Shown here: positions 10,425-64,000 of the stretch, in pieces
How positions within the stretch are numbered: the first letter of the stretch is position 1
How the letters are laid out: each line of letters opens with the position of its first letter
Source of the DNA: Eledone cirrhosa
Taxonomy: Eukaryota
Direction of reading: 5' to 3'
Assembly: GCA_964016885.1 (NCBI GenBank)
Contig: OZ024740.1
Coordinates: 342,550,001 to 342,614,000 of the forward strand
Length of the DNA stretch: 64,000 nt
Translations under genes and position numbers: made by a program
The notes under the pieces: model-generated
What the model was told of the DNA's origin: nothing
Database searches by the model: none
What the model saw: only the letters and a program-made list of their open reading frames with translations

Positions 10425-10494
<70 letters not shown>

Positions 10495-39800: not shown

Positions 39801-40165
39801 GCAATAATTATATAGTCACTGTCGGTTATTTGGGAGGTAGTGAGCATCAGTGTCTCATAGAATCTGTCTTTTATAGCGCCAGGCAGTCTGGATTGGGGTG
39901 CGTAAGCAGATATTACTGTCACAGTAGTTCTATTTAGAACAAGTCTTATTTTAATTATTCTGTCATTCACTCTATTTACGTCTATTATCTTATCCACCCA
40001 TTTTTCTGCTAACATGATTCCTACCCCACCCAGCCCATTGTCATTTCCCACCCAGAAAAGCTTATAGCATCGTTTTTTACCCACAATGAATCTAGCAGAC
40101 CCGCCCCTCCACCTGGTCTCTTGGATACAGCAAACATTAACCTCCTTACGTTCAAGCATTTCTAA
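36845..40165 (-). mobile_element. Near full-length RTE-clade LINE (APE endonuclease, RT, PHD-like finger), frameshifted
   Basis: CCIQETRW, SAYAPQ, IAGDLN and SQVDYIL (APE). DLEKAF and ELLYADD (RT). (GAT)n tail inserted next to (TA)n. Several frameshifts and stops. Confidence 0.93.
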
Positions 40166-40692
40166 TAACAGACATAAATTGAAGTTGTAGCTGCAGTGTA
40201 GCAGATACCAATCAAATTGTTTGAGGCAGTCACAAAGCACTCGATGGTGTGAAAAGTTAATATGTTTTCATCCAGAGTAAACACAAAAAGTTAATTAAGT
40301 GTGAGACCAATAATACCACAAAATATATATAGTTCATAGAAATATATATATATATAATTCATAGAAAATATAGATCATACATAGTTAATAAAAAATATAG
40401 ACCATATGTCACAGACAATGTAGTAGATAATTGCAATTTGTAAGATAGCGCTGAATTATTTCCATTAGAACATTAAGACCATCATTCCATACTTAATAGC
40501 TTCAAATTGAATAAAGAGATCAAATTTCTTTTTGCAGATTGACAGCAATGAGCTTATCAATGCAGAACTAATATTGCAGAGATTATTTTAACAATTTATT
40601 GTTTGTACATACAGTCAGGATAAAAGATAAAATAACTGAAAAAGCTGAAAGAGTAATTTTTCGAAGGGTTTTATCATATTTGGCTAACATCA

Positions 40693-40798
40693 TTAAAGTG
40701 ACAGGATGATCCAATTGGATGAAATCACTAAGATAAGAAGTAGGAGAGATATTTCTACATGTGATCCAGCTGCTATACGGCACTGTAAAAGATCTAAT
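40693..40798 (-). CDS. Gene 2 terminal exon: GPI-signal-like C-terminus
   Basis: tttcag|A. RLDLLQCRIAAGSHVEISLLLLILVISSNWIILSL*. Phase 2 matches the upstream donor. Confidence 0.75.
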
Positions 40799-43700
40799 CT
40801 GAAATAAAAACAATAATTTTGACTATTTATATCCATACTGAATTTTTACAAAACATTAAAAGGGGAAGTTTATATACATTTCATTCACAATTTTAAACAC
40901 TGTCTATATAGGAATGTAACCCTTTAGCATTTAAACTGGCCATATCCAGTCAGAATTCTCTCACCTCTCTGTTCAAACCAGCTACAACTGACTGCTTATA
41001 CTGATATTAAGGTATTGTTCTAACCCATGCTAGCGTGGAAGATAGACGTTAAACAATGATGATGATGATGATGTTCTCAAAATAAACAATATAAAAATCT
41101 CATAGATTCGGAATTATGTAAGCCTTTATCAGGAAAATATAATAGTAAATATAGAGTAATGTAAATGCTAAAGGGCTAAATTCAACATGATTCTTTATAA
41201 TTAACAAATATCAGTCTAAAATATGATAAGGTTGCAAAGTTATAAAACTGTTTAATTAACTATGACTCAATCAATCCCAGTTCTCAGGCCTTTATGTAGT
41301 TCTCTGGGCCATACCAGAGTTTATGACAGACAAAGATTTTCCAAATATAGAAGCAAGGTCTAGAACCCTGAGGTCTAAAAGTAAACGTAGTAGAGTCAGT
41401 AAGAAAGACTTATAAAACTCTACTGTAATCTGGAAAATGGCAGAGGCTCAATATACATAAAAATTATTGGTGTGGACTTTACACTTTGTACCCAATGTAA
41501 ACTATGAGTACCTTAAGAAGGTGCATGTGTGTGTGTGGGGTGGGGGTCACAGTCAAGCTGGCAAAGAAGAAAGACTATGTAGCAGATACTCAAATGTATT
41601 TAGTAATAAGAGCAACAACAACTGCAACAGCAACAACAGCAATAGAACCCATCAATAGTTGTCTGGAATATTACTTTGGTTATCAATGTATGTATGTCTA
41701 ACAACATAGAAGCATTAATTTACCACTTACTACATATTGACAGCAAATTAACAGTGTTGTTTGACTGTAATATAAAATATCTTGCAGTATTTGTTCTGGC
41801 TATCTGTGCTTCAAGCTCAAATCCTGCTGAGGTCAACATTGCCTTTCATCCAAAGTAGTATTCCTAATCTGTCAATTAGTTTAACATCACAGGTTAGCTC
41901 TTGGGCACTTTTAGCAGACTCTACTCTGTTGCAAGCATTTATACCAGGTCTCCAGTTTGAGGATACCTCATTCTTTTCCACCAGTCTCAAAGGCATTGAA
42001 AGGCCCTTCCCTCTCTGACTAAATAGTTAAAAAGAAAAATCATGCAAGATATTTTATTTATAACTTACCTGTTAGGTTCACCTTGCTTTTTCTTTAACCA
42101 TTCTAATTCCAGACTGACACCTTCAAACCAAGATTGTTCATCTTCAAAGGGATATTCATAACCTTGTTTACACTTACAGGCATAATTACCAAGACTGAAC
42201 CCAAACCCTCTCAGTGGGGAACACTGTAAGGGGAAGAAATATTACAAGCATTTCTTATCTAATGACAGTCAACTATAACACTTATCTCATAATGTCAGAC
42301 ATTGTACAACATATTTTGGTGTATATGTGGTAGTGTGCATTAAGAAATCTAATTAGCAGATACAGTAAGGCAGTGACTCCCAACATGGGGTCTGTGGACT
42401 TTCGCAGGGTCTGCAAAAGGAAGTATTGAGAATCAGTTAGCTTCCTGAGTTGACAGACCTTTCATGGGAAAATCCACTTAAATAAACAGTGTCCTTGGTT
42501 GTGAAAAAGTTGAGAATCATTGCATTAAAGCATCAGATAAAATGTCTTGTGGTCTTTATACTCTTACATTCCAAGCTCAAACCTTGCCAAAGTCAATTTT
42601 AGTTTTCATCCTTCCAGAGACAATAAATATAGGAACAGTTTGTAGTGGTGGAGTAATGGAATCATTAGTACATTGAACAGGGTTTTTTGTGGCATTTTGT
42701 CTGGCTCATTGTATCCTGAGTTCAAATACTGTTGGGTTCTATTTGAGTAGTAAACTTAATTTTTCAGCAAGTTTACCACCAATACATGGCTCTTGGGTGC
42801 TTTTAGGGGAGTCCTCTTGGCTGCAAACATTTGGGTCAGATCTCCAGTTTGAAGATACCTTCCCCCTCCTCCTCTCTCTCCCACTAGTCATAAAAGCCCT
42901 GCAAAGGATCATAGGTGCTGCTCTTCCTCTTGACTCAGCAATGCTCATGTCTAAATATATAGTACATAAAGTTAATAGATGTTTAAAATAACCACTTTCT
43001 ATGTAATGGCCATTTTACTTACATATTCTTTGTTTGGAATTAAGATCTGTTTAAGAAATATGTTGGCTTCTTTTAGTTAATACCAGCAGAATGGCCTGGC
43101 GTTGCTCAGGATTCTAAACATAGATTGGCATGTTTATCCTTCCTTTCTGAAACAGTACAGAAGAGAAGTACGGAATACCTCGGCCTGGGGATGGTGCTTA
43201 TAAAAGATATTTGTCGTAGATTACCAGGGGTTTAACTTAATTGGGTGCCTGAGAGTAAAATATTCAACCCACGAAAGTCAAGACGATAGGGTTAAGTAAA
43301 AAGGCATTCGCCAAACCGAACATGTATTTGTTATGCTATGGTACAATGAAAGCAATAGTTACAGAGCAGTAAGGATGTGGGACTGAAGTGGTGGAGAGCA
43401 TGAAGGAATTTAGTTGGATACTTTTAAGGTTACAGGCCCTAATGCAACCAAAATGCTAAACAGTGCGGTCCCCGGGCCAAAATTTGAAATCTTTTTCAGT
43501 CAAGAAAATTTGTGAAACATGAGTAATGCATATGCAAAGTTTTTAAAAAATCGGTTGGGTACTTCTCGAGTTACAGGCCCTAATGCAACCAAAATGCTTT
43601 AAAAAATCGTTTTTTCGCCTAATGCTGTCCCTGGGGCAAAAAATGAGAAAATCTTTTTTGCTTAAGACACTTTAAACGACATAAGTAATGCAAAATTTGG

Positions 43701-46700
43701 AGAAATCACCTGGATATTGTTCCGTTATGCCTAAAAAAAAGCCTTTAAAGCCTAAAATATGTGGTTTTTTCGCCTAATGCGGTCCCTAGGGCATAGAAAA
43801 TTTGAAATATTTTTTGCTCAAAACACTCACACGACCATTAGTATTACATGTGTAAAGTTTGAAAAAAATCGGTTGGGTGGTTCTTGAGTTTTAGGGAAAC
43901 AGACAGACAGACAGACATTCTCTGTTTTAGATATATCGATGTATAAAATTACTTTCACTAGATCCCAATCATTACCTTTTGAAATTCTCATTGTGCCAAC
44001 ACTAATTCTCCCCCTCCTACATATTTTGAGAAAAACCTTGATTCTCTCTCTTGGCTACTACCCAATCTTAGAAGTCCCCTCTCTAGCTTTATAAAGTTCA
44101 CAAATATGTGTTTATGTATGTGTTTGTATGCATATGAACGTTTATTTTATATCAAATATATATATTTTCTGTATGTGCATGAGTGAGTATGTATACATGT
44201 ACCTGTTTATATTAGTTGGCATATGCATATATGGTATGGGCCTGCATTCTGCACTTGAGTAAGTACATATCCTTACAAATGTTTGATGTTTGGCTGTGTC
44301 TTCATACTTGTGTATACATGTATATATATATATATATATATAAATATATATAATATAAAAAACTGCCCGCCAGTACAACCCTTGTAACACAAAAAGTAAA
44401 TGTAGTGAGTGACTGGAAGCTACCGCAGGGGTGACCAAATGGAGACAGTAAATGGTTTAAGAGCTCCCGTCAATCTGGGTGAACATGTAGCAACCTCTCT
44501 AGTGTTTGTGCAATGATAAATTTCACCCAGTACACCTTATAATGTGGCAGTGCATGAAAAACGTACCTATGACTTATCATCCACCCTACCCTACATCATA
44601 TCCACCACATCATAAGGTAGAAAGGGCCCTTCACTTGAATTTGACCTACATACTCCCTAGTGCTAGTACCACAATAAAACACACCTAGTACGCTGTGTAA
44701 GATAGCTGGTGATAGGAAGAACACCCAGTTGAAGAAACCATGTCAAACAAAGAGTAGAGAGGACTTTTCAGTTGTGTCAAGAGTATGATGACCTCTCTAG
44801 TGCTAGTGCCATGATAAAATGCACAATGCACTCTGTAGAGTGCTAGCATATATGAAAACGAGCTGAGGTCCTGGCCCATCTGAGAGATGAGTTGTTCTGA
44901 TTAAGTACTGACTTGGTCTTTGATGACCTCACCCATCCTTTGCTAGTATAATGATATCTTAAAGGCTTAAAGCATTTAGCTAAATAGTAGCAATCTTTAG
45001 AATAAATTGTACAGTGTATTGTTTATAATAGACAAAAGAGTAAAGTAAACAACCTAAAGTCTGTAAAATGTATAGCTGTATAATTTTCTTTGTAGAAGAC
45101 TTACCTTTGTAGAAGCTGGACATAAAGCTGTGTTCTTAAAAGCATTGGCAGTGTAGAATGGCTTTTGGCATTGATTAATGTCCAAGAACTTCAGATCAAT
45201 ATCAACTAGAACAAGACCTCTAGAAATACAAGAAAGAATGAATAAGATGTGCCTATCATTATGACTGTAAATAACATAACGTGTCATCATATTGTTGTTT
45301 TTATGTCTGTTTTTTTCATGATAACATGTAAAGTGGTTGTGTAGATATCACAACAAAAAGGACCCAGTACACACTGTAAATTGGGTTGGCGTTATGAAGG
45401 GCACCCTACCATAGAAACAAAGCCCAAATCAGTTTTGTATGAGCAAAACATGGTCATCTGATCTGGCATGTTTCACAATGGGACAACTTGTCTAACCCAT
45501 ACTAGCATGGAAAAATGGATGTAAAACGATAGAAAGAAGATATATATTGTGTGGGTACACACATGATGGGCTTCGTGCAGTTTCTGTATACCAATTTACT
45601 CAAGGACATTTGCTCAAGGTATCATGCAACGGGATAGATCCTGAAGCTATGGTGCTGTGAAGATATAATATATTTGGGAAAATGGATCTATTGATTGTGC
45701 CTGGTTCTTTAACCAACTACCAACTTTGGCTATAACATTGCTGGATTATGGCAGAGTTAGGGATACACAACAACTCCAAATAACCATTTCTCAATTCTTC
45801 TTTTCTGCTTGTCTAATTGTGTCCTCATTACCTTCTTTCTTCCTTCCTTCTCCCACTTCTGATTCTTTCTCCCACTTCAGATTCATTTTACTCTTCCTTC
45901 TCCTCCCATTATTCTGTTTAGTGACCTTCAACACTCCTACATCCTCTGTGTCAGGCCACCTAAACTGCCCTATATTCTCTGTTAAGTTTACAGTTTTCTT
46001 ATTCAGATCTGCCCCCCTCCTCCCCATAAAAATAATACTGTCTTAGTTTCTAAGATTTATTTCAATATTTCTATATTGTTAAGGAATTATTCATACAGTT
46101 TGGAAACTCTTTCTATTGTTAACTACTTAGCTATGTAGTGAGAGTGGAGCCTGCTGCCAATCAAACAGACTGGAACAGGCAGAGTTATGTATGTATGGTC
46201 CCATAACTCCTGATACAGTCATAGAGGCACCGTATATACATACAGGATTTCTCAGGCATTTTAAGCCCCTGCTGGAGCCCATCCGTCTCCAGGCCTGAGT
46301 ACAGCAGATTTCTTCCAGGGAAAGATAGAAAGTGAGAGAGAGGAAATGAGAAATAGATATAGAGGAAGAATCCACCCCAGTACTAGACTGGTACTTTTTT
46401 TATCGACCTCAACAGGATGAAAGGCAAAGTTGACCTCGGCTGGATTTGAACTCAGAGAGCAGAGAGCTGGAATGAATACCATAAAGCATTCTATCCAACT
46501 TTCTAATGACTCTACCAATTCTCCGCTTCTAAGCAGAGTTATATGTTTTGTCAGAGGTCTAGCATAATAGGTGTATTGCTGGCAATGAAAGGTTTCTTTC
46601 TCTGATTGAATACTGTGAATATGCAAAGGTTTCGAAAAAATGAAGTGAGTATGCTCCACTAGATGTGTGCATAAAAGAAAAGACACATTTGAGCTGAGGG

Positions 46701-49700
46701 GGAAAACTAGGCATAAAATAAATCAAATGTAGAGTGCCAGAGAGGAGAATGCATTGGGACAGACATGTGATGCATGTGGATGATGATCATTGGGTAAAAA
46801 AATGGAAGAAAGATATGGTAGAGATAGGCCAAGGGAGACTTTGGGTGAAGTGGTGAATGTAGATTTCAGGATGCTGTATTTCACAAAGAAGATGGCAAAG
46901 AAAAGAAGAAACAATTGGAGAGATGCTGTGCTGGAAAGAATTTGTCTAACTCATGTAAACATGATAACATATATTTAGAAATAATGATGGCGAGGATGAA
47001 GATTATGATGATGGTGATGGTGGTGGTGGTGATGATGATGATGGTGGTGGTGGTGGTGGTAATGATGATGGTGGTGGTGGTGGTGGTGGTGGTGGTGGTA
47101 ATGATGATGGTGGTGGTAGTGATGATGATGATGATGACGACGATGACGACGATGATGAAGATGATGATGATTATGATGATGGTGGTGGTGGTGATGATGA
47201 TAATGTTGATGATGATGACAACAATGACGACAATGACGATGACGATGACAATGACGAAGATGATGATGATTATGATGATGGTGGTGATTATGATGATGGT
47301 GATGATGATGATGGTGGTGGTGGTGGTGGTGGTGATGATAATGTTGATGATGACGGCGACAACGATGACAATGATGACAATGATGATGATGATGATGACG
47401 ATGACGAAGATGATGATGATGCTAAGGCTGTTGATGATGATGGTGATTATGATGATGATGATGAAGTGTTGAACACATTACAATGGTCATGAGAGGTTTT
47501 AAAATGTGTCGGATGAATGTAAATTATTGTTGATGTTAAGAATATCAGGACTAAAGAAATACAAATAGATAAATCTGAAGAAAAAACAAGAAAAAAAACA
47601 AATGCTGACTTACATAAACTTTACAGTGAGGGAGGAATCATGACTAAAAAATGGAACAGTATAGGTAATGACCCATTTGTCAATTCTTCCATCACAACGG
47701 TAAGTTGGTCCACTCCATCGACCAGACTTGAAAGTAGGTGCCTTGTATGGCATATCACTGTATTTAAAACGTGTTCTTCCTGTTCCATTAATATTAGACC
47801 GTACAAATGCTTTAATATGGAATTTTTTCAATGCCTTTGTGTTTGATTTAAAACGTTCTTTTTCTGCCATGAACCATGGTGTATGTAAATAACTTTCTTT
47901 CAATCCTGCAGCATCTATTGCCCACCAACCATCATCCTTTCTGTAAGCCCAAGGTCCAAACAATGACTTTTGTTTCCCATTAGCTCCAATAAATTGGTAA
48001 CTGTCAAAAAACACTGCAGAAGAAAGTATTTTGTGATCTGACATAACGTTAGCTAAAACCTCAGCAAATACATGGTCTTCCTGAAGTTGCTGTCCTCCAT
48101 TCATGGTTCCAAAATTTACACCAACTTCATTGTTTTGTAAAAAACTGCTAAGAAAATGTGCCAGACGCAGAGCTGTTCTGGCTTGTGGTTCAAATTGTGA
48201 TTCAGCTCCATATATCACAGATCCAGATAATGACAGGCCTGATGGAGGTTCTTTATGACAGTTTGTTTTGTTCATATCACCAATTTGTTTCATAAGAGTT
48301 GTCACCTTAATAGCAAGCTTCTCATCATAAGCATTTCGACGCTGGCGAGATGTCCTATGTTTAATATTTCTTTTGATGTTTAATGTTCTCTCATGTTGCA
48401 TATATAATGTTAGACTTCTATGTTTCTCCAATTGTTGTACTTTACGATCTGAAATATAAAATGTTAAGCACAGTTTTGTAAATAAATATATTATCTCTAC
48501 ATACAGCTTACATTAGCTGACAATGTGAAAATGTTCTGGATGTATGGCTGTTAAATAGAGAACTAGCTCTTTGACATCCATAACCAATATGAACTGGATT
48601 ACACAATTTGAGTGTTGAAGACACCAAACAGTGTCTCAAGCACTCTAATTTATTATTCTTTTACAGGTTTTAGTCATTGGATTGCAACCATGGTCTATGT
48701 CAGAGGTTCTCAAACTATCGGGGCCACTACCCCCCCCTCAACGCCACGTAATACCCTCAGTGCCACCACCCCTATTTCTAGAGAGACCTGCCTACATGGA
48801 AATTATAAATAACATATAATAAATAAAATTGTTATCATCATCATCATCGTTTAACGTCTACTTTCCACACTATCATAAGTTAGACGAGTTTGCCGCTAAT
48901 AAATAATATAATATATAATATGTATAAATAGATATTATACATTTTTTATTTTACTATATTTATATATAATATGCATCATTTGATATTTGATATACTATTA
49001 TGTCATCTGTACCACAACCCCATCACCTGCTTAGGCCATTGCACCCCACCCCCCTGGACCTTCTCGACGCACCCCCCCCAGGGGTGGTAGCGCCCACTTT
49101 GAGAACCTCTGGTCTAGGTTTATATAGAGTAAAATTAGGGTTAAGCAATAACATCATCAGCATTTAGGCAATTCATTTAAAGGTCCCTGTGATGCTAATG
49201 AAGTTACATGCTACATTTGAATGATGTAGAGGCACTCTATATCCCATAATACCACAAACAACATCATCCTTATCTCATGTTAACTTATGAGAAACATCAC
49301 CTCTATTTTTTATATCATGCATTTTGTAAACAATAGTATCATTAGTTATAGGTTTTCAAAGGCTCAATGACTTTTAAAAAGTCTTTCTCAAGCCATGAGA
49401 CTTATCAGGCTGGATCCCAGTTCCATGAGGTGTTAAGCAACTGAAAATACAAGACACCCACTGGGATGGGATGTCAATTGATTGCAAGAGTCAATCACTG
49501 GTTCACTGCATTTACAATGGTGAGAGTCTCAAGGGAGTGTCTTGGATAAGATAAATACCTTAAGGTATTTTTATTCAGCACACTATTTTTCTTGCTGGTG
49601 TGAATAGCTTTTTACAACACACACACAGACTCTCTCACATTCACACACTCACACACAGACACACACACATGCTCACTCACACACATGTGCACTCACACAC

Positions 49701-52700
49701 AAACACACAACACACTCACCTACACATAAGTACTACTTACGTTGAATGGGAGTACATGTGAAACCATTCTTATATTCCTCCTCAGTAGCTTGTTCTATAT
49801 TAGTTCCATGGAATGGTGGTTTAATATAGGATGGATATTTATAGCCTCGATTGCAGACACACTTGTAACCTCCTCGCTTAAACCCGAAGCCTGGTACATG
49901 TTTACACTGAAAAATTAGAATATTTAATAGCTGTTAGGATATACACAACTGCATTGGCTGTCAGCTGTTGAGACACTGCATCCTACAAAACTTCCATGCT
50001 TCCCGAAATTCGTCAACACTACACCTGATATTGCCCCTCCATACACATGTACACATGTGTGTGTGTCTGTGTGTATATCATGACTCATACGCTGTTCACT
50101 TTCCTGACATTTGTACATTATTCTATGTACTATATATGTACCTTTGATGAGTTGTAGTGCACCTGAGCATTGTACACAATAATTTTCTTTATTATTATTA
50201 TATATATAACCTGCTGAGGTTAACTTTGACTTTCATCCTTACGGGGTAGATAAAATAAAGCACCAGTAATACACTGGTATAATTGCTGGCATTGTGCCAA
50301 AAGTAGAAACAATTATTATTATACCTAACAGGTATCTTTACAGTTTCCATCAACTAAATTCACTTGCAAAGCACTGATCCCTTCAAGGGTAGGTATAGAA
50401 AAATACATTTGCCCAAGGTGTCGTGAAGTGGGACTGAACCTGAAATCACAGGATTCTGAAATAAATATCTTAACTACACAACCATGCCTGTAACCATGCC
50501 TATATAAAACCATATTTAAAAAGATAGCGTGTTAGTTTTTTGACATGGGAAGACTGGTGTATTTAGGTAGAGTAGTGAGATTTGAGATATAATTTAGTCA
50601 TGTAAACCCTCATTATATGATATGCCCTGAACATAGTAGTGTATTTTAACCCTTTAGCATTTACATTACTCTATATTTACTGTTATATTTTCACGGTAAA
50701 GGCTTTATTTCACATAATATCAAATCTATGAGATTTTGATATTATTTATTTATTTTGAGAACAATACATTAACATCAGTATGAGTGGCCGGTTACAGTCA
50801 GTTTGAGCAGAAAGAGGTGAAAGAATTCTGGCCGGATACAGCGGATTTGAATGTTAAAGGGTTAAATACATGAGGGTCAGCTGAAAAGTTCATAGGCTGA
50901 CTATAAAGGAGTGATACTAGGGCTGTGAAATCTTGCAAGCATTAATTTCAACTTTACTTATTAATAACTGCATTGTTTCTTTCCAGGGACTATGTTGAAT
51001 AATAAACCTCATTTGGTCATTCGATGAGAGTATCTTGGTCAGCCTATGAACTTTTCAGCCAACCCTCATTATGTGTAATGAAAATCATGAAGACACATGG
51101 TTTTGGGGTTAGTGTGTTTGGCTCACAATTGTAAGGATGTAAGTTCAATTTCTAATAGCATTCAGTGTCTTTTAGCAAGACACTTTATTTCATGTTGCTC
51201 CAGTTCACTCAGCTGGAAAAAATAAATTGTACCTGTAATTCAAAGGGGCAGATATATCACATTGAATCTTCTAGAGAATTACGTTAACCCTTTAGCATTT
51301 AAAACAGCCGTATCTGGCTAGAATTCTCTCACCTTTTTCTGTTCAAACTAACCATAACCGGCCACTCATACTGATGTTAAGGTATTGTTCCCAAAATAAA
51401 TAATATCAAAATTTCGTAGATTCGATATTATGAGATAATTCTATGAAAATGCAATAGTAAATATAGAGTACTGTAAATGCTAAAGGGTTAAGAGTACATG
51501 TGTCTGTAGAATGCTCAGTCACTTGCACGTTAATTTCCTGAGTTAGGCTGTTCTACAGAACATTCATCATGAGAGCCAACAGAAAGATCCAACACATCAC
51601 ACCGTGCTCTTACCTTTGTGGTTGGTTTACACCTGTCAATTCCGGCAAGATAATTGGGAGGTGGATTTCCAATGCTTAAAGGACAGGCATTAAAGTCAAT
51701 TTTCCGGAAATAGGTATCCATGGTAATCAATGCAACTATTCTAGGGGAAAAAAATGACATAATTGTAATTCTAGTTAGAGTTGATGCAAAGGGTTGATTT
51801 CTGGTTGTGTCATTTTAGCTACACTCGGGTCCCAAATATTGGGGGGGGGGGGGTTAAGTGGGCAGTGAAATAAGTAGGTGCAGGGTTGGAAAATCAGTAA
51901 TTTTTATAGGTTGCATCCGTTGATTTTTTTTAAAAACCAGAATTAGTTATTTATTTTACATATTGAAACCCCAACTCAGCTCATCCTATTTATTTTATAA
52001 TGTATGGGACTTCTAGTAATGTACTTTTTTTTATCATGTATAATGTTTTTTAATGTATAAAGAAAATTAACAGTCGCAAGAATGCTACCACTTAAAATTT
52101 TACCAGAGATAGATTAGCAAAATTGAATAAGCGGTGTGGGGGGGGGGGGGTAAGAGCAGGGGAGTGGAAAAAGTCGGGGGGGGGGGGGGGGGGGGGGGGG
52201 GGGCGATTATTTGAGACCCGAGAGTATGTAAAAACAAATGAGGAAAAGGAAAAGAAATAAACAAAAATAAATGTAAAGTGAATTTAGCAGTTTGATATTT
52301 GTAATTGATTTTAGCGGTATGCCCAGCTAACTATTGCAGTATTTAGACAAATGCAATAATTTAGGCATACATAACAATTGTTTCTACTTTTGGCACAAGG
52401 CCAGCAATTATCCCGGTACATTACTGGTAAATTTATTTTATCGACTCCCATAAGGATGAAAGGCAAAGTTAACCTTGGTGGGATTTGAACTCAGACCGTA
52501 AAGGGTCGTAACTCTATGCTGCAAAGCATGGCGTCCAACCTTCAACTGATACTGCCAATCCACAACAATGCCGACCAAACTAGTTTCTCTGAATCCCAAT
52601 TATAGGTGTAGATACACAGTTATTATCACAATGATCTCTAACAGGCACAAAGCTACATATCACCACCATCATCATTTTCCATGCAGGCATGGATTAGATG

Positions 52701-55700
52701 AAATTTTTTGAGGCAATTTTTCTATGGTCAGATGCCTTTCATAACACCAACATACAGGATGTCCCCAAAAGATGTATACGCATTTCAACAGCATTCTAAT
52801 AAATATGTGTATACACATTTGGGACACCCTGTATACGTTATTTCTAACTATATGGTATATATATTGGACAAAGATGCAAGGACTCCTCCTCTTTATTTCG
52901 GCCGCGGATGGCCAACATAACCCCATCTCCCTCACCCCTCCCTGCGCCCCACCGTTCCCACCCACCAAACGCAATCCCAAACTTACCAAAATACACCCCC
53001 GTCCCACTACCCCCACCCCATCCACACCACCCCCTTCTGATGTAAAGTTATGTTGGTACCACAACATCCAGTCCTAAATAAATGAGGTCGTGTAGGTGTC
53101 ACAACAAAAAAACCACACTGTCCACACTGTAATGTGGCCGTGTAGGTAACACAGTAAAAACCTCCCAGTCCACACTGTAAACGTGGTTGGTGTTAGGAAG
53201 GGCATCCAGCCGTAGAAAATCCATCAGACAGTCCTATACGAGCAAGACAACCAATCTTGCCCCAAGTGGGAAAATTCCCGTCCAAACCCATGCCAGCGTG
53301 GAAGATGGACGTTAAACGATGATGATGATGATGATGATGATGATTGCTAATTTTTTTTGTTGAGTCATATTATTTATGCAGGATTTACACACTTTATTTT
53401 AATGTTATTGATATGAAGATAAATAGTAAGCTGACATAAAAGGATGATGATATGACAGACTTTGTACAATTTCCATTCAATTTCATCCCCAAAGCATTGC
53501 TCAGCCTGAGGCTAGAGTAGAAGACGCTTGCTCCATATGTTACACATCATCATCATCATTTAACGTCCATTTTTCCATGCTAGTATAGGTTAGACAAGTT
53601 GTCCTGTTGTGAGACGAGTCAGATCAGATGACAATGTCTTTCTCATACAGAACTGATTTTGGCTTGGTTTCTACAGCTGGATGCCCTTCCTAATGCCAGC
53701 CACATTTACAGTGTACATTGGGTGCTTTTTATTGTGACACCTATATGATCAATTTACAGTGGACTGGGTGTTCTTTGTCATTACACCTATATGACCATTT
53801 TACAGTGTTGACTGGCCACTTTTTGTTGTGACACCTATATGATCACTTTATAGAGTGGGCTGGGTGCTTTTTGTTGTGTCACCAATTCAACCACTTTACA
53901 GCAAAACCAAAAACCATGTAATTGTAAAGCAAACTTCTTAACTACAGTCATATCTGCACCCAATATTTATAATATAATAATAGAATATGAATGGAATAGA
54001 AATATGATATGAAAACAGTATAAAACATCCAAAACTTTTACAAAATTTTTCAAGTCAAAAATATTTATCCTTCTTTTACCTTGGTCTTCTCATATGGGTG
54101 AATCGCAAGTATCTCGGCATGAAATCTATCACAGGTGAGACTGCAGAAACTATCCATTCATTTGACTTTTTACAGTCAAAATATGGCCGAGTAAATCTAA
54201 CCGGAAGTTCTTCATCCAAAGAATGCTGACCAGGAAGAGCAGGTCCAAAGAAAACCGAAATATTAAAATGATCACTGATGAACTGTCCTGGTCTGTTTGA
54301 ATATTTTATGCCCACTGAATACTTATATTTCGTCAAAGAGTCCTTACTCTTATACACATCAGGCATATTCCATAAAGAATACCAAATATTTGTTTTACTC
54401 CATCTGCTTGTGTAATTGTCATAACCTAAATAAAAAATAGAAACCACAGTGTAGTATATCAATGAGAAGAATAATACTCGTCCGAAACTATTATTATTGT
54501 AGATTGGTAATATCGGTAGAGAGTTGGATGCCATGCTTTGCAGCAAAGAGTTACAGTCCCTTATGGTCCGAGTTCAAATCCCGCCGAAGTTAAATTTGCC
54601 TTTCATCTTTATGGGGTTGATAAAATAAAGCACCAGTAATGCACTGGAGTAATTGCTGGCCTTGTGCCAAAAGTAGAAACAATTATTGTAATTGTTATAA
54701 AATGTCCTTTTTATAAAGATTAACTCTGTCAGTACCAAAATACCAACTAATATATTGTTTATCTCCCACCATTTTTAAATGCCAAAAATATACCCCTTTA
54801 GTATTTAAACCGACCATATCCAGCCAGAATTCTCTCGCCTCTTTCTTTTCAAATCAGCTATAACTGGCTGCTCATACTTATGTTAAGATATTGTTCTCAA
54901 AATAAATAATCTCAAAATCTTGTAGATTTGATATTATGTGAAATAATTATGTGAAATAAAGTGTTTACCATGAAAATATAATAGTAAATATAGAGTAATG
55001 TAAATGCTAAAGGAGTACTGGTGTGTTTTACTTTAGTTTGTGAAGTGCATGCCAAGATAAAGTAAATAAAGAAAATTTGAAATATCTATTTTATTTTACT
55101 TTTTGCAATGCTTTGAAAAATGCAGATATTAACATGTAGTAACTGTTTGGGGCAGTAGAGTACAAAAAAACCAGCACTGGCATTCAAAGAGTTAAAGGTG
55201 AGATACAGTTCTTTATTCTACATAGATAATTTCATTGACATTTATTTGCTCATTTTCTTTTGCATTTCTCATTGAATAAATTAGAAGGTATGTAGAGTAG
55301 ATTACCAAATGTAAATATAATAATTCAGGCTACCAAATTAACAATGTACTCACTTCCAAGTTGGTGTCAGAAAGATTATTTATAAATCATTTGCTCTATC
55401 TTTGAGGTAAAGTATCTAAATTTGTAGTATATATCAAATGCTGGTGAAAGGAAATGGATGTGGAAAGAAAGGAATCTAATTGAAATAAATTACACATATT
55501 AGCACAAAATTAGTATTGATGTATACATGTATATTTGTAGGGGTGTGAAATGCTGCATGTGATTTAACTACAGAACTTTCCCTGGGCTTGTAATTTGCAG
55601 CACACCCTAAAACTCACACACACACACACATATATATATATATGCATAGACACACATGCACAAATACACACATATGCATATACATGCACACAGACAGAAA

Positions 55701-57840: not shown

Positions 57841-57893
<53 letters not shown>

Positions 57894-60800
57894 TTCTTTA
57901 TTGGCCACAAGGGCTGACATCAAGAAAAACATTACAAACGGCACAGGACGGTACATGACGGTACGATGTGGGTTTTGTGCGTGTAAATATTTTTATTATT
58001 TATATAAGAGAAGAAAAAAAAAAGACATAGAAACATATATATAAACAATAAAAATGAAAATTGAAACAATGAAAAATTCCCCAATAGGGGGGGGAAACCT
58101 CCGAGGGTTACTCGTGGCGAAAACCACACAAAAGACCACGGCCACCCTGACCACCAGGGCAAGCGCCCTCTCTCAATTTTTCCATTTCTCAAACTATAGG
58201 CGTATATTCAGAGCGGTCCAGTTCACTCGGACCATTCTCACTACATTCACCCACCTTTCAACAAACTTGCTAGAGGGCAGCACTTGCCTCTCCACCCTGA
58301 TTTTCCTCTTCAAGTGAAACTTGAAAAAGTTAATTAGGGATTTGCCGAAGAGGAAAGTGTCTGTCTTTAACCCTTTCCACCTTGTCCACCACACAATCTC
58401 TTTCGCCATGGCCACCAGGCAAATGAAAACCGCCTGCCCTTCCTCCTCGAAGGAAGACGGCGAGACCATCTGCACAATGGACTCAGTCGATAACCGGATC
58501 AGTCCTACACGCGACAGCAACTGTTCGACATAGCTCCACAAGTCAGCAATGCTCGGGCACTGAACGAGTGCGTGCACGACGGTTTCGTCGCTCTGCGCGC
58601 ATCTCGGACAGGCTCGGCTGACGGCACTTCCGTGCCTGTAGAGCTTATCTCGAACCGGCAGCGCTCCCCGGTAGTACTGCCAGGCCAGGGATTTTTAATA
58701 ATAATAATAATGCTTTCTTTATTAACCACAAGGGTTTACACAAAGTAGACATTAAGGACAGTACAGGACAATACAGGTACAAATGGGCATTTCTGCAAAT
58801 AAAAAAAACAAAAAAACAGAGGATGTAATAATGAAAAATTCCCCAATAGGGGGGAGACTTCCGAGGGCCATCGAGGAGAAAACCCATTAAAAAAAGCCAC
58901 GGTGACCCTGACCACCAGGGCAATTGTCCTCTCCCAGTTTTCCACCTTCAATTTACAGGCATATACTCAGAGTAGGTCCATTCACTTGAGCCATACTTGC
59001 CTCTCTCACCCATCTGTCAACAAAAAGCTGGGAAGAGAGCACCTCCCTCTCTACTCTGATTTTCCTTTTCAAATGAAATTGGAAAAAGTTAATCAGGGCA
59101 TCACCGAAGAGGTAAGTGCTCATCTTCAGCCCTTTCAGACGCGTCCGCCATACTATCTCTTTCGCCATGGCCACCAGACAGATAAAAACTGCATGCCCTT
59201 CCCGGTTAAAGGAAGAGGGCAGGGAAATCCTCACGATGGACTCAGCTGATAGTCGGATCCATTCTACACGTGACAGCAGGTGTTCAACATAAATCCACAA
59301 GTCAGCAATGCTCGGACACTGGACGAGTGCATGCAGGACGGTTTCGTCGCCCTGCGCGCATCTCAGACATGCCCGGCTGACGGCACCTCCATGCCTGTAG
59401 AGTTGTTTATCCCAAACTGGCAAAGCTCCTCGGTAGCACTGCCAGGCCAGGGATTTCTGGAAGTTGTCCATAGGCCTTGGCATGAAAGTTCTTCCAAAGA
59501 GATTGGCTAGTTGATTTTCGTCGATGCCTAGTTTCCCCAAGTATGTCGTCGCTCTTCCCCTCCACTAATCCTCTATAGAATGCCAAGGTGGAATTTTCAC
59601 CAATCACATTGCCCAATTGGTCGAGGGCTGTGAGCGCCTGAAGACATTCCAGTCTCTAAGCGCTCCCTCTCGGTCTTCGCTTGATCCAGGACTGCAGCTC
59701 CGTCAAGGAGATGAGCTGGGGAAAGACGCATCTAGCAAATGCCGACCACACCTGATCACCGTCGAGGAAGAGGTGGAGATGTCGTAGCCTGAGCATCATA
59801 AGCCACAGCATGCCCAGCCCTCCATGTAGCGGGTGTTGACAGCAGATGGACCGCCTGACCATCGGAGCGCATCCCTTCCACAAAAAGCGGAAGAGCAAAC
59901 ACTCCAGCGCAGTCAGGTGAGGCTTAGGACAAGGCACGACGGTCAGGCGGTAGTAGATGACGGACGCGATGTACGCGTTAACCACCTCCGCTTGACCTTT
60001 CAGGGATAGCTTACTCTCCGCCCATTTCTGGGTGAGAGAAGCCACCCTGCTCATCACCTCGTCCCAGTTTTTGTCCGTCTGGAGGCCCGGACCGAACCAG
60101 ACCCCTAGCAATTTAACCGGTCCATCCGTCCAGCGCCTGACGACGCCATTGGATGGCATGGACATGCTTCTCCAGGTGCCGAGCTGCAGGCCCACCGACT
60201 TTTCCTGATTGATCATTGCTCCTGTCACAGCGTCGTATTCTCTTAGTGTAGTGCCAATCGCCTCGATGTGTTTGGCGTTCGACACCACTACGGTGACATC
60301 GTCCGCATATTCTGACATGGATCTTCCGCATCCTAGTTCACACGCCCCCCCCCCCTCAACGTCTCCAGTTTGTGCAGTAATGGCTCGAGAGTCAATACGT
60401 ACAAGAGGGACGAGAGGGGACATCCTTGGCGGACCGAGCGCATGATGTTGAATGGTTCCGAAAGGTGACCGTTCACTCTCACCACAGAGCAGATGTCGCT
60501 GTGCATGGCAGAGATCGAGCCTCTGAAGACGGGCCCAAAGCCAGACGCCAGATAACGATGGTCGACCCTATCAAAAGCTTTCGACTGATCTAAATTGATC
60601 AAGGACCCACCCGTGCCAGGTTCCCTAGCTACCCGCTCCACAATGTATCGCATGAGGTGGAGGTTGTCGTGGATGGATCTGTCGGGAATGGCGCATGTCT
60701 GCGCCTCTCCTACCAGACCACCAACGACAAGCGCCAACCTCTTTGCTAGCACCTTGACCAAAATCTTGAACTCTGTGTTTAGAAGAGTTATGGGCCTGAA

Positions 60801-63800
60801 ATTATCTATGTTATTCCCCTTGTTCGGATCCTTTTTCAGCAGCACCACCGTTTCTCGGCTCACAGAGCTGGGAATTCTCCCGTTCTGTTGCCAGTTGCAG
60901 TAGACGTCCGCCAAGAGGCCTCCGAACAAGTCTGGCATCTGTACGTAAAGTTCATAGGGCAGACCATCCGATTTACCCTTTGTGCAGCCAGTCATTGCCT
61001 CCCATACTTCAGCTGCTGTTATCGGCTTTTCGCAACACTCTGCCTCAGTGGCCGAGAGCCGCGGCAGTCCGTCAAGGTAGACACTAAAGTCCATCCCTCG
61101 ATCCGGCCCACCGCTGCCCCCCGATAACTGGATCCGTCCTACATGCGACAGCAACTGTTCGACATAGCTCCACAAGTCCGCAATCTTCGGACACTGAATG
61201 AGTGTGTGCAGGACAGTTTTGTCACCCTGCGCGTATCTCGGACAGGTTCAGCTGACAGCACTTCCATACCTGTAGAGCTTATCTTGAACTGGCAACGCTC
61301 CGCGGTAGCAATGCCAGGCCGGAGATTTCTGGACGTTGTCCATAGGCCCCGGGCTGAAAGTTCTCTTGAAGATAGCGAATAGCTGATCATCTTCGATGCC
61401 CATCGTCTCACTCAAAACGTCATCGCTCTTCCCCTCCATTAGTCCTCTATAGAACGCTAAGTTGTAGTTCCACCGATGCTAGTGCCCAGCTGGTAGAAGG
61501 CTATGAGCGCTTGGAGACATTCCAGTTTCCAAGCGCTATCCCTCTGTCTTTTCCTGATCCAGGACTGCAGCTCCGTTAATGAGACGAGCTGGGGAAAACA
61601 CGTCTGGCAAACGGCGACCACACCTGTTCACCATCAAGGAAGCCCCAGAGATGTCGCAGCCTCAGTGCATGTTTGCGTATCATCAGCCACAGTCCTCTGT
61701 GCAACGGGTGCTGACAGCAGATGGATCGTCTGACCATGGGAGCACATCCCTTCTATAAAAAGCAGATGGGGAGGCGCTCCATTTTTGTCAGAGTTGGGCT
61801 GTGGCAAAGCACAACGGTTAGGCAGTAAAGATGACAGATGCAATGAACGCATTCGCCACCTCTGCCCTAACAACAGTAATAATAGTATAATAATAATTGT
61901 TTCTACTTTTGGCACAAGGCCAGCAATTACCCAGTGCATTACTGGTACTTTATTTTATCGACCCCCGTAAGGATGAAAGGCAAAGTTAACCTCGACAGGA
62001 TTTGAACTCAGAATAGCAAGGGCCGTAACTCTATGCGTCAAAGCATGGCATCCGACCCTCTACCAATACTGCCAATCCACCGCCATAATAGTATAATAAT
62101 AATTGTTTCTACTTTTGGCACATGGCCAGCAATTACCCAGTACATTACTGGTACTTTATTTTATCGACCCCGTAAGGATGAAAGGTAAAGTTAACCTCGG
62201 CGGGATTTGAACTCAGAATAGCAAGGGCCGTAACTCTATGCGGCAAAGCATGGCGTCTGACCCTCTACCGATACTGCCAATCCAGGCACAAGGTTAGCAG
62301 TTTGAGTGGAGGGAAAGCGAATTAAATTGACCCCAGTACATAACTGCTTCTTTATACTATTGACCCACAGTTAATCTCAGAATTTAAAGAGTCAGAACAA
62401 ATACAAGTCGATAGGGTTTCTAATTTAAGCATAAGGCCAGCAACTACATGTAATAATAATGGTTTCTGATTAAAGCACAAGGCCAAAGGTTTTGGGGGAG
62501 GGAAAGTTGATTAAGCCTTAAGCATTTAAACCTGCCATATCCATCCAGAATTCTCTCACCTCTTTCCATTCAAAGCGGCTGTGACCGGCCACTCATACTG
62601 ATGTTAAGGTATTGTTCTCAAAATAAATATCAAAATCTCATAGATTCGATATGAGATATTATGTGAGATAAAGCCTTTACCATAAAATATAATAGTAAAT
62701 ATAGAGTAACGTAAATGCTAAAGGGTTAAATCAATCCCAGGACATTACTGGTTCTTTACTTTATTGAGCCCATAAGGATGAAAGGCAAAGTTGAACACAG
62801 AATGTAAAGGGATGTAGCTCTATGCTGCAAAGCTCTACCAATCCACTGCCTTGCATTTTCTTGAATTACCATAACAATGGTTTCTGCACAAGGCCAACAA
62901 TTTTTGGGAGGAGAAATCGATTAAATCAACCCCAGTTCATTACTTGTGTTTTATTTTATTGTCCCTATAAGGATGAAAGGCAAAGCTAACCATGGCGGGA
63001 TTTGAACCCTGAATGTAAAGGGTCGTAACTATATGCCACAAAGCATGTTGTCCGACGCTCTACCGATACTGCCAATCCATAACAATATTAAAAAGTAAAG
63101 ACCCTTTTCTGTTGTGAATGATCATGGATTTTGCACCTAGAAAGTTTCCCTCCAAGACATAAGCCTAGGTAAGATGTTTTTGTGGACCAGCAGCAGTCTG
63201 GGTGTCGAACTCACAACCTCACGATTGTGAATCCAACTCTCTAACCTTGGTAACTCTTGAGGGAGTCGTAGTGGCAGTGTATTGACATATGGCATAATAT
63301 ACAACAGTACTAAAACAACAACAACAATAATAATGGTTTCTGAGTTAGGCACAAGGCCAGCAATTTTGGAGGAGGGGAAAGTTGATTAAATCGACCCCAG
63401 TGTATTACTGGCACTTTATTTTATCGACCCCGTAAGGATGAAAGGCAAAGCTAAATAATGTTAATAATGTTGGTCAGTGTAATGAGAAAAAAATAAATAT
63501 AATAAACAAAAAAAAGCTTATGTTTACCTGTTCCCATGTCAGAAACTTTTGTCGATGTCAATGTTGGTTCATGTAAGAAATTTTTTGAATCTCTTGTGTC
63601 ATCGTATCTCCAAGCTGATGGTGCAAACAATGGTAGAGTCCTGTTAAATGGGTAAATCCCTATCCAATTTGGATAATGACAGTTGTTGTCAAAATATATG
63701 GAACTTCCATTGACAAGGTTAGGGTTAGAGTTAACATTAGCAGTAACACTCATATAAAGATACAACCATCCAGGTAGATTGGGGAAATCCTTTGACTGAT

Positions 63801-64000
63801 TAAACTTTTGTAGAATAAAACTGTGAAAGTAGGCTCTATTTAGTGCTAAGTTGTGTAAATGAAGCAATCCAGTTCTGTTGCGATAAAAAACTTTGCTCAA
63901 GAGATTATTGTATTTTGGTATCTGTGAAACAGTTCCAGGCCTCAGGAGAATATCAGACATCGATTTTGAACGACAGTTTTCTGCATTGACATTTTTCATA
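40693..64000 (-). CDS. Gene 2 (5'-incomplete): protein with tandem GPR158/GPR179-type Cache+EGF ectodomains, a putative GPI anchor and no 7TM. complement(join(40693..40798,42069..42223,45105..45219,47614..48448,49741..49906,51614..51740,54080..54425,63528..>64000))
   Basis: All introns are GT-AG with compatible phases (1,2,0,1,2,0,2), giving an ORF of about 773 aa. Motifs ALRLAHFLSSFLQ, FGPWAYR, GRWSGPTYRC..WVITYTVPFF, LDINQC and GFGFSLGNYACKCKQGYEYP match the GPR158-family ectodomain as I recall it. Confidence 0.85.
42069..42223 (-). CDS. Gene 2 exon: EGF-like/Cys-rich part of module 2
   Basis: ttacag|CSPLRGFGFSLGNYACKCKQGYEYPFEDEQSWFEGVSLELEWLKKKQGEPN. AG|gtaagt. Confidence 0.88.
43430..43930 (+). 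mobile_element. Possible Helentron/DINE-like non-autonomous element
   Basis: Internal direct repeats (ttacaggccctaatgcaaccaaaatgct twice; aaaaaatcggttgggt twice) ending in (GACA)n. Confidence 0.4.
45105..45219 (-). CDS. Gene 2 exon: end of Cache / start of EGF-like region, module 2
   Basis: ttctag|A GLVLVDIDLKFLDINQCQKPFYTANAFKNTALCPASTK|gtaagt. Confidence 0.88.
46982..47465. repeat. Imperfect (GAT/GGT)n microsatellite
   Basis: Seen directly. Intronic. Confidence 0.95.
47614..48448 (-). CDS. Gene 2 exon: linker and Cache domain of module 2
   Basis: 835-nt open exon. RQRR, YGAESQFEPQARTALRLAHFLSSFLQ, WVITYTVPFF. AT|gtaagt. Confidence 0.9.
48701..49111. mobile_element. hAT-Charlie-type MITE
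   Basis: TIRs CAGAGGTTCTCAAA / TTTGAGAACCTCTG. 8-bp target duplication GTCTATGT / GTCTAGGT. Confidence 0.8.
49741..49906 (-). CDS. Gene 2 exon: EGF-like/Cys-rich part of module 1
   Basis: tttcag|CKHVPGFGFKRGGYKCVCNRGYKYPSYIKPPFHGTNIEQATEEEYKNGFTCTPIQ. C|gtaagt. Confidence 0.88.
51285..51491. mobile_element. piggyBac-type MITE of about 200 bp (representative copy of a family)
   Basis: TTAA-CCCTTTAGCATTTA...TAAATGCTAAAGGG-TTAA. Related copies near 9430-9543, 13146-13362, 15833-16020, 19747-19917, 40917-41178, 50647-50865, 54790-55012 and 62514-62729. Confidence 0.75.
51614..51740 (-). CDS. Gene 2 exon: end of Cache / start of EGF-like region, module 1
   Basis: ccctag|A IVALITMDTYFRKIDFNACPLSIGNPPPNYLAGIDRCKPTTK|gtaaga. 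Confidence 0.88.
52905..53343 (+). mobile_element. RTE LINE 3' UTR fragment
   Basis: Matches the 3' UTR of the RTE copies at 24330-24713 and 36845-37200. (GAT)n tail. Confidence 0.85.
54080..54425 (-). CDS. Gene 2 exon: Cache domain of module 1, C-terminal half
   Basis: atttag|GT. YDNYTSRWSKTNIWYSLW...PVRFTRPYFDCKKSNEWIVSAVSPVIDFMPRY. AG|gtaaaa. Confidence 0.9.
57716..57893 (+). mobile_element. R4/Dong-like LINE 3' end followed by (TAA)n
   Basis: KMALLSTAHILQSIFSIQ* resembles the C-terminus of restriction-like-endonuclease LINEs. A short UTR is followed by (TAA)n. Confidence 0.55.
57891..61867 (-). mobile_element. Cluster of three truncated Tx1/L1-clade LINE copies (57891-58690, 58712-61120, 61121-61867)
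   Basis: NFRPITLLN, DQSKAFDRVDH, VRQGCPLS and YADD (RT). CLRCAQGDETVLHALVQCP (zf-RVT CCHC). AATAAA plus (TTA)n tails on two copies. Confidence 0.9.
61896..63450 (-). mobile_element. Cluster of Nin-type tRNA SINE copies and fragments
   Basis: Two near-identical full copies (61896-62085, 62101-62285) plus several partial copies. Same family as the copies at 2057, 52376 and 54500. Confidence 0.8.
63528..64000 (-). CDS. Gene 2 exon (cut by the window edge): module 1, N-terminal half
   Basis: NRTGLLHLHNLALNRAYFHSFILQK, PGWLYLYMSVTANV, TLPLFAPSAWR, VSDMGT G|gtaaac. Phase 1 matches the next exon. Confidence 0.88.

What the first reader, a model, noticed from the sequence alone, without database searches (positions are those of the whole stretch)
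40693..64000. GPR158-family ectodomain duplicated in tandem and apparently GPI-anchored, with no 7TM domain
Seen: two successive Cache+EGF-like modules spliced in frame to a last exon reading ...CRIAAGSHVEISLLLLILVISSNWIILSL*, i.e. small residues, a spacer, a hydrophobic end and no cytoplasmic tail. Downstream there is only a LINE and the convergent gene 1. Known: GPR158/GPR179 are class C GPCRs with one Cache ectodomain and a 7TM domain, and the GPR158 Cache domain binds glycine. Inference: this is a receptor-less surface ligand-binding protein (co-receptor, decoy or synaptic organiser). Similar uncharacterised proteins may already exist in other invertebrates, so novelty is not established.
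Basis: partly seen in the sequence, partly recalled or inferred. Interest (0 to 1): 0.8.

Follow-up and report, generated by a model that had tools for sequence, protein, structure and literature searches.

The report
Anchored single-chain GPR158-type sensor pair
This octopus gene is spliced into a message for two tandem copies of the outer sensing part of the GPR158/GPR179 nerve-cell receptors with no membrane-spanning receptor body, which are predicted to fold onto each other like that receptor's pair and likely hang on the cell surface by a lipid anchor, in an apparently unstudied protein family shared by molluscs, worms and insects including fruit flies.

Summary
Confirmed. Eight GT-AG exons on the minus strand give an 820-aa protein: signal peptide, two GPR158/179-type Cache+EGF modules and a 28-residue GPI-type tail. 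The ATG lies 140 nt beyond the window. A spliced 2,543-nt contig uses the last three junctions and ends beside AATAAA, and no 7TM exons were found. This is not an octopus oddity: 267 of 293 proteins examined are two-module, none has a 7TM, and 229 of 245 complete ones have a GPI-like tail. They span molluscs, annelids, flatworms and arthropods, including Drosophila. New here: the two modules of the O. sinensis orthologue are predicted to pack like the GPR158 homodimer (ipSAE 0.85, best control 0.00; possibly by likeness to solved dimers). A furin-type site sits before module 2 in 74 of 78 non-arthropod members and 1 of 189 arthropod ones. Module 1's pocket motif is conserved; module 2's varies. 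Best reading: a lipid-anchored, internally paired binding platform acting through a separate membrane partner, like alpha2delta. Anchor, cleavage, ligand and partner are untested, and glycine binding is unsupported. No paper found in 10 searches. This scan noted the family before in another genome (e1-7832283).

The parts
63528..64000 (-). Coding exon 1 (in-window part; it continues to the ATG at window-equivalent 64140 and encodes the predicted signal peptide 1-30 outside the window): N-terminal helices, the two dimer helices and first strands of module 1
   Evidence: 78% identical to P0001 residues 1-206
54080..54425 (-). Exon 2: module 1 hairpin and Cache strands, with the conserved T-x-P-Y-x-D-C motif
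51614..51740 (-). Exon 3: last Cache strand and start of EGF-like domain 1
49741..49906 (-). Exon 4: EGF-like domain 1, ending at Cys413
   Evidence: (PF22572 E 7e-4 for the exon alone)
47614..48448 (-). Exon 5: low-confidence linker, furin-type site and Cache core of module 2
   Evidence: covered by the spliced contig
48336..48347 (-). RQRR (residues 452-455), the protein's only R-x-K/R-R site, just before module 2; predicted furin cleavage
45105..45219 (-). Exon 6: last Cache strand and start of EGF-like domain 2
42069..42223 (-). Exon 7: EGF-like domain 2
40693..40798 (-). Exon 8 coding part: last EGF cysteine (Cys792), GPI-type signal and stop codon (40693-40695)
40696..40773 (-). Predicted GPI signal: omega site Ala795 (or Ala796), small omega+1/+2 residues, short spacer, hydrophobic run to the C-terminus
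   Evidence: rule-based; no trained GPI predictor was available
40595..40600 (-). AATAAA polyadenylation signal; the spliced contig ends 5 nt before it

Best explanation
The gene is spliced into a message for a signal peptide, two GPR158-type Cache+EGF modules and a short hydrophobic tail with no 7TM; the tail is likely swapped for a GPI lipid anchor, the two modules are predicted to fold onto each other as a one-chain copy of the GPR158 ectodomain dimer, the linker is likely cut by furin, and the result would act as a surface binding platform that signals only through a separate membrane partner, much as alpha2delta does. Shown: exon structure, the last three splice junctions, the stop, two modules, no 7TM, family-wide conservation of the tail pattern and of the spiralian R-x-K/R-R site. 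Predicted: Cache/EGF fold and module-module packing (helices 94-114 on 540-555 and 124-140 on 505-524, plus swapped hairpins; P0001 numbering). Inferred: GPI addition at Ala795/796 in the ER; Golgi cleavage after Arg455, leaving module 1 held non-covalently on the anchored module 2; an asymmetric pair in which module 1 keeps a conserved pocket or binding face and module 2 is freer to vary; binding of an extracellular matrix or synaptic protein, or a small ligand, passed to a channel or receptor in the same membrane. Tissue, ligand and partner are not known. A neuronal or synaptic role is inferred only from GPR158/179 and alpha2delta.
For: Spliced contig to the stop and poly(A) signal. AlphaFold2 on a 111-sequence alignment of P0001: mean pLDDT 90.5, pTM 0.88, linker 421-450 at about 53. 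Top fold matches: GPR179 (Foldseek E 1.5e-12; VIA Z 9.9, rmsd 5.4, 251 aligned, model 470-798 on chain 63-361) and GPR158, then bacterial Cache sensors; module 1 matches 9hvj at Z 9.1, rmsd 3.4, 155 aligned. Module 1 with module 2 as two chains: ipSAE 0.85 in three runs, best of 3 controls 0.00, runs agree in at least 85% of contacts, partner pLDDT at least 75; the mark was reached by 51 of 78 solved and 2 of 108 mismatched microbial pairs, and by 39 of 65 and 2 of 126 eukaryotic pairs. The crossed helix contacts match the alpha4-alpha5'/alpha5-alpha4' packing described for GPR158 (PMC8611064 section 7), and hairpins reaching the other protomer are described for GPR179 (PMC11437087 passages). 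Each module keeps six CR-domain cysteines and lacks the four of the D-loop that docks on the 7TM in GPR158. Tail: 229 of 245 complete members pass my GPI rule; small residues at omega and omega+2 in 55 of 58 redundancy-reduced tails, against a shuffle mean of 6.2 and maximum of 13. R-x-K/R-R before module 2 in 74 of 78 non-arthropod members, against 7 of 1,442 background windows. Pocket-side triplet T-Y-D in 56 of 62 module 1s, S/T-Y-D in 31 of 72 module 2s. Alpha2delta precedent: Cache domains, GPI anchor, proteolytic cleavage (PMC9901441 passages).
Against: No experiment on any member was found, and there are no expression data by tissue. The complex pass may come from likeness to the solved GPR158/179 dimers, and both models are of P0001, not of the window's own protein. 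GPI was called by my own rule; many family tails end with a few charged residues (median 2-3 after an uncharged run of about 20), which also fits a short type-I anchor. The furin site is nearly absent in arthropods (1 of 189), and a mite clade lacks the tail altogether (P0126 and 7 similar), so neither cleavage nor anchoring is essential to the family. Whole-chain matches to alpha2delta have rmsd 22-24: the arrangement differs, and there is no VWA domain. The YxxxxRxW amino-acid motif Arg is absent from both modules.
Confidence: 0.55

Rival explanations
1. Same paired ectodomain, but the C-terminal hydrophobic run stays as a single-pass membrane helix with almost no cytoplasmic tail, rather than being replaced by GPI.
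For: Uncharged run of about 20-21 residues followed by a median of 2-3 residues in the family. One cuttlefish model (P0003) has a long polar extension after it. The same ambiguity long applied to alpha2delta (PMC9901441 passages).
Against: Position-specific small residues at omega and omega+2 (55 of 58). In the window protein the hydrophobic run reaches the last residue, is interrupted by S-S-N and has no basic stop-transfer residues.
Confidence: 0.13
2. A decoy or shed ligand sink for the 7TM GPR158/CG31760-type receptors: it binds their ligand, or released module 1 pairs with a receptor ectodomain and damps its signalling.
For: Same fold and pocket-side motif as the 7TM relatives. A cleavage site in spiralians and tail-less mite members show soluble forms are possible.
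Against: Both dimer faces are predicted to be occupied within the molecule, with about 190 confident contacts. Modules 1 and 2 and the 7TM ectodomains form three separate, long-diverged groups. Very high conservation (about 66-91% among the 120 arthropod-query hits listed) fits a fixed partner better than a sink.
Confidence: 0.15
3. A glycine (or general amino-acid) co-receptor: the Cache pockets bind glycine as in mGlyR and present it to a partner.
For: Module 1 keeps T/Y/D/D at the positions aligned to GPR158 S266/Y269/E271/D307 (alignments; their role in glycine binding is recalled from Laboute 2023, which was not held).
Against: GPR179 keeps several such residues and does not respond to glycine. 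The dCache_1AA Arg is absent in both modules. The window's module 2 has S/T/R at the first three positions. The region around GPR158 172-173 was not aligned by any search.
Confidence: 0.12
4. A truncated or mis-modelled GPR158-type receptor: the real transcript skips exon 8 and reaches 7TM exons elsewhere.
For: Only one contig from one run shows the 3' end, and contigs drop rare isoforms.
Against: The contig uses exon 8 through the stop. No 7TM match in the window plus 200 kb upstream. 0 of 267 two-module proteins carry a 7TM. The one 1.5-module + 7TM record (P0188) repeats its own exons almost verbatim. The C9 paralogue in this genome has the same type of last exon.
Confidence: 0.02

Closest known systems
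GPR158 (mGlyR) and GPR179, class C GPCRs with a Cache+EGF ectodomain; invertebrate 7TM relatives annotated 'probable GPCR CG31760'
   Same: N-terminal helices + Cache/PAS core + EGF-like domain (PF22572, PF22673); the D-x-N/D calcium-EGF-type motif; predicted crossed two-helix dimer interface.
   Different: Two modules in one chain, so the dimer would be an internal heterodimer. No D-loop, 7TM or cytoplasmic RGS7-binding tail. GPI-type end, and a furin-type linker in spiralians.
alpha2delta subunits (CACNA2D) and CACHD1
   Same: Secreted-pathway surface protein with more than one Cache unit, a GPI-type C-terminus and a proteolytic cut that leaves two pieces associated; no signalling domain of its own (PMC9901441 passages).
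   Different: No VWA/MIDAS domain; tandem single Cache+EGF modules rather than nested double-Cache domains; whole-chain rmsd 22-24; no dCache_1AA Arg; no spare cysteine in module 2 for an inter-piece disulfide; no evidence of channel binding.
Database entries 'uncharacterized protein / GPR158/179 extracellular domain-containing protein': O. sinensis LOC115216171, O. bimaculoides LOC106878076, D. simulans GD20036 (LOC6727293), A. gambiae AGAP001418
   Same: Same two-module, tail-bearing architecture; the window gene is the orthologue of the octopod entries (79% and 74% identity to P0001 and P0002).
   Different: They carry only automatic names, several mislabelled as GPCRs. No description of the architecture or function was found.

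Membership tests
GPR158/GPR179 class C GPCRs | Cache/PAS + EGF-like ectodomain (PF22572) | tested here: met
   Two PF22572 stretches in P0001; exon-level hits in the window; top fold matches GPR179/GPR158.
GPR158/GPR179 class C GPCRs | 7TM domain (PF00003) and cytoplasmic RGS7-binding tail | tested here: not met
   Stop after a 28-residue tail in a spliced contig; no 7TM in window + 200 kb; 0 of 267 family members; P0122 as positive control has PF00003.
GPR158/GPR179 class C GPCRs | CR domain with five disulfides including the D-loop | tested here: not met
   Each module keeps the first six CR cysteines and ends before the four D-loop cysteines.
GPR158/GPR179 class C GPCRs | Ectodomain dimer through crossed alpha4/alpha5 helices | tested here: inconclusive
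   Predicted between modules 1 and 2 (ipSAE 0.85, best control 0.00); a model only, possibly by likeness, and not superposed on the solved dimer.
mGlyR (GPR158) function | Glycine binding in the Cache pocket | not testable with these tools
   Partial residue mapping only; pocket residue list recalled; primary paper not held.
dCache_1AA amino-acid sensors | YxxxxRxW(Y)...Y...D motif | tested here: not met
   Position W-2 is Asn in 90 of 111 module 1s and Glu/Lys/other in module 2; motif from PMC8915833 passages.
alpha2delta/CACHD1 | VWA domain with nested double-Cache domains | tested here: not met
   No VWA hit at E 0.1 in four members; the 821-residue model is filled by two Cache+EGF modules.
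GPI-anchored proteins | Signal peptide plus omega/omega+2 small residues, spacer, C-terminal hydrophobic run, no cytoplasmic tail | tested here: met
   Window tail; 229 of 245 by my rule; 55 of 58 against a shuffle maximum of 13. Rule-based, not a trained predictor.
GPI-anchored proteins | Actual GPI attachment (PI-PLC release) | not testable with these tools
   Needs bench work.
Drosophila argus (CG16791), recalled as a possible fly orthologue | Same protein as the fly two-module orthologue | tested here: inconclusive
   The paper gives no protein sequence. Its short cDNA starts at a second Met 51 residues in, and its primer reads Met-Gln, neither of which fits P0408. Treated as not the orthologue.

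The most novel reading that the evidence does not exclude
Protostomes have kept, since before the ecdysozoan-spiralian split, a receptor-free, single-chain heterodimer of the GPR158 ectodomain that works as a second, independently built alpha2delta-like auxiliary subunit or synaptic organiser: lipid-anchored, furin-matured into two bound halves in spiralians, with a conserved sensing half and a variable half that diverged quickly in this octopod paralogue. The single fly orthologue would give a direct genetic route to what GPR158-type ectodomains bind and do without a 7TM.
Probability: 0.3. Interest if true: 0.8.

Novelty: new variant of a known kind. Interest (0 to 1): 0.55.

Why it matters
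GPR158 and GPR179 are studied for mood, synapse formation and night vision, and their ectodomains are known as ligand sensors and matrix-binding organisers on a 7TM body. A family that keeps only the ectodomain pair, fuses it into one chain and likely tethers it by a lipid shows that this unit has a job apart from the receptor. It is strongly conserved in insects and present in Drosophila and Anopheles, yet carries only automatic names, some wrongly calling it a GPCR. That makes it an easy genetic target and a soluble, pre-paired scaffold for ligand screens and structures. It matters less as an octopus finding: the family is old and already in databases.

Tried and rejected
No RNA holder was listed by the run search; this is no evidence either way, and the spliced contig came from a run of unrecorded kind. 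The first AlphaFold model (17 sequences) was weak (pLDDT 67.7, pTM 0.66) and was replaced. CG16791/argus, recalled as a possible fly orthologue, did not fit; the D. melanogaster gene name was not established. P0188 as a 'missing link' with a 7TM was rejected as an exon-duplication artefact. The careful tree did not finish; the quick tree has no outgroup and a midpoint root, so the order of events is not shown. Laboute 2023 and Patil 2022 were not held, and two searches for the glycine-pocket residues returned nothing relevant. No named nematode, deuterostome or cnidarian two-module protein appeared, but many hits are unnamed and the queries were protostome, so absence is not shown. The sequence look-up of earlier findings returned nothing. 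The Atlas held no structure, and its feature hits were the family's own clusters.
Full report
Gene model. Reading the minus strand, I built eight coding exons with GT-AG ends that splice into one frame. The first exon runs off the window; the ATG is 140 nt beyond it, giving 820 aa. The protein is 79% identical to Octopus sinensis LOC115216171 (P0001) and 74% to an Argonauta protein, so the window is from an octopod. Layout: predicted signal peptide 1-30, module 1 about 35-417, linker, RQRR 452-455, module 2 457-794, tail 793-820, eight N-glycosylation sequons.

Transcript. No run was on record as RNA, but run X2 holds a 2,543-nt contig that lies on exons 5, 6, 7 and 8 with exactly the predicted junctions and ends at 40605, 5 nt before AATAAA. 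The remaining 1,244 nt match exons 1-4 in length; those exons were outside the stretch laid. This is one contig from one study and does not exclude rare isoforms. 7TM regions of three relatives found no credible match in the window plus 200 kb upstream.

Domains and fold. P0001 and three other members each give two PF22572 stretches. PDB sequence hits are GPR179 and GPR158. The joined window protein cannot be handed to the folding tools, so I folded P0001. With 111 aligned sequences the model reached pLDDT 90.5 and pTM 0.88, with the linker low. Foldseek and VIA rank GPR179 and GPR158 ectodomains at the top, with bacterial Cache sensors close behind. Module 2 aligns to GPR179 63-361 (Z 9.9, rmsd 5.4, 251 residues) and module 1 to a Cache sensor (Z 9.1, rmsd 3.4, 155 residues). 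Both modules stop after the sixth CR cysteine, dropping the D-loop that contacts the 7TM in GPR158 (PMC8611064 section 7). The truncation follows a domain boundary.

Internal pairing. Folded as two chains (ESMFold2, alignment not used), modules 1 and 2 of P0001 scored ipSAE 0.85 in three runs; the best of three controls scored 0.00. The runs agreed in at least 85% of contacts and the partner's pLDDT was at least 75. The mark was reached by 51 of 78 solved and 2 of 108 mismatched microbial pairs, and by 39 of 65 and 2 of 126 eukaryotic pairs. The tightest contacts cross the first dimer helix of each module onto the second helix of the other (550 with 102/105/106; 516 and 520 with 128/131/135), with hairpins 241-254 and 627-641 reaching across. 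This matches the packing described for the GPR158 and GPR179 dimers. Because like dimers are solved, the pass may reflect likeness. I did not test M1-M1 or M2-M2.

Family. Three homologue searches and cluster look-ups name molluscs, annelids, flatworms, an orthonectid, a rotifer, a nematomorph, a tardigrade, chelicerates, a myriapod, crustaceans and insects, including D. simulans GD20036 and Anopheles AGAP001418. One search examined 293 proteins (the window model, P0001-P0126 and P0298-P0463; P0127-P0297 were left out; the set is rich in near-identical insects). Of these, 267 had two modules and none had a 7TM. Of 245 with a complete module 2, 229 passed my GPI rule, 9 had a short or no tail (8 ending within 5 residues of the last Cys, one cluster named as an eriophyid mite) and 7 were otherwise. 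After reduction to 72 representatives at 70% identity, 55 of 58 tails had small residues at omega and omega+2 (shuffles: mean 6.2, maximum 13 in 500). This shows position-specific selection of a GPI-type pattern, not attachment. R-x-K/R-R lies just before module 2 in 74 of 78 non-arthropod and 1 of 189 arthropod-like members (background 7 of 1,442 windows). From the profile search of 1.84 billion representatives (1,654 hits, 150 listed) I examined the 38 new ones of 400 aa or more. Sixteen had a 7TM; 15 of these were single-module, and the other (P0188) repeats its own exons.

History. A quick tree of 72 modules (28 M1, 28 M2, 16 7TM ectodomains) puts each class on one side of a branch (SH-aLRT 100, 98, 98), and the M1 and M2 subtrees broadly separate ecdysozoans from spiralians. 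This fits one duplication before that split; there is no outgroup, so the order of events is open. The window gene and its O. sinensis orthologue sit on a long module-2 branch (0.70 against 0.33 for module 1); identity to the sister paralogue is 58% in M1 and 50% in M2. This genome has two further paralogues (C1:320.35-320.40 Mb, C9:44.01-44.02 Mb), a fragment on C26 and a near-identical copy of the whole locus.

Ligand. The universal amino-acid motif (PMC8915833 passages) lacks its Arg in both modules. At positions aligned to GPR158 S266/Y269/E271 (their role in glycine binding is recalled, not read), module 1 has T-Y-D in 56 of 62 representatives. Module 2 has S/T-Y-D in 31 of 72, and the window's own module 2 has S-T-R. 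The module-1 triplet could be structural, but its freedom in module 2 suggests an asymmetric pair. GPR179 keeps several such residues without responding to glycine (PMC11437087 section 12), so glycine binding should not be assumed. GPR158 and GPR179 ectodomains also bind matrix proteins (passages), which is the other likely kind of partner.

Literature. Ten searches found no paper on a two-module, 7TM-less family; the Pfam, PANTHER and locus ids gave 0 papers. The library lacks most subscription journals, supplements were not searched for this family, and the D. melanogaster gene name is unknown to me, so a fly study could have been missed. Seen: passages of PMC12716839, PMC12834959, PMC9901441, PMC8915833 and PMC10695916; passages plus one section of PMC11437087 and PMC8611064; abstract, passages, two sections and two supplementary files of PMC8177895. 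This scan noted the same family earlier in another genome (e1-7832283); I saw that note after my own tests.

Verdict. Real, expressed, and correctly described. It works like a lipid-anchored, pre-paired GPR158 ectodomain, and in design like alpha2delta, but it is a member of neither family. New variant of a known kind; interest 0.55.

Noticed in passing
window 2074-64000 and upstream, versus G000:C1:341790001-341940000 (L026-L029, L049-L055): A same-strand copy about 760 kb away, 98-99.9% identical in every block sampled over about 150 kb, ending near an assembly gap. It holds the whole gene with two amino-acid differences, and the spliced contig carries the copy's letter at 48392. Likely an uncollapsed haplotype; a recent duplication is not excluded.
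   Followed up: partly
window 58200-61500 (intron 1) and 37220-40270: Broken non-LTR retroelements (Pfam RVT_1; endonuclease in the downstream one), with further 3' fragments in intron 1.
   Followed up: partly
window 3845-31493, + strand: Convergent gene with EGF-repeat exons (3845-4210, 10119-10520) and a long acidic last open frame (30819-31493); probably a single-pass EGF-repeat protein.
   Followed up: no
L048 and L058 (G000:C1:341740001-341750000, 342500001-342510000): Both stretches are filled by a 40-bp tandem satellite, next to each copy of the duplicated block.
   Followed up: no
P0126, P0090, P0094, P0095, P0106-P0108, P0110: A clade (one member named as the mite Aceria tosichella) ends 3-4 residues after the last Cys-Arg, right at the predicted omega site: possibly secreted forms.
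   Followed up: partly
P0161, P0187, P0192, P0205: Divergent gastropod and nemertean proteins of 546-625 aa with two Cache cores but no second EGF domain or tail: a possible secreted sub-family, or incomplete models.
   Followed up: no
window exon 1, Cys154: An extra, unpaired cysteine in module 1, present in 50 of 111 aligned members.
   Followed up: no
G000:C26:12720903-12721253 (L005) and G000:C5:77211163-77211333 (L046): An isolated fragment resembling the C9 paralogue, with an in-frame stop, and a further PF22572 exon, perhaps from a 7TM GPR158-type gene.
   Followed up: no
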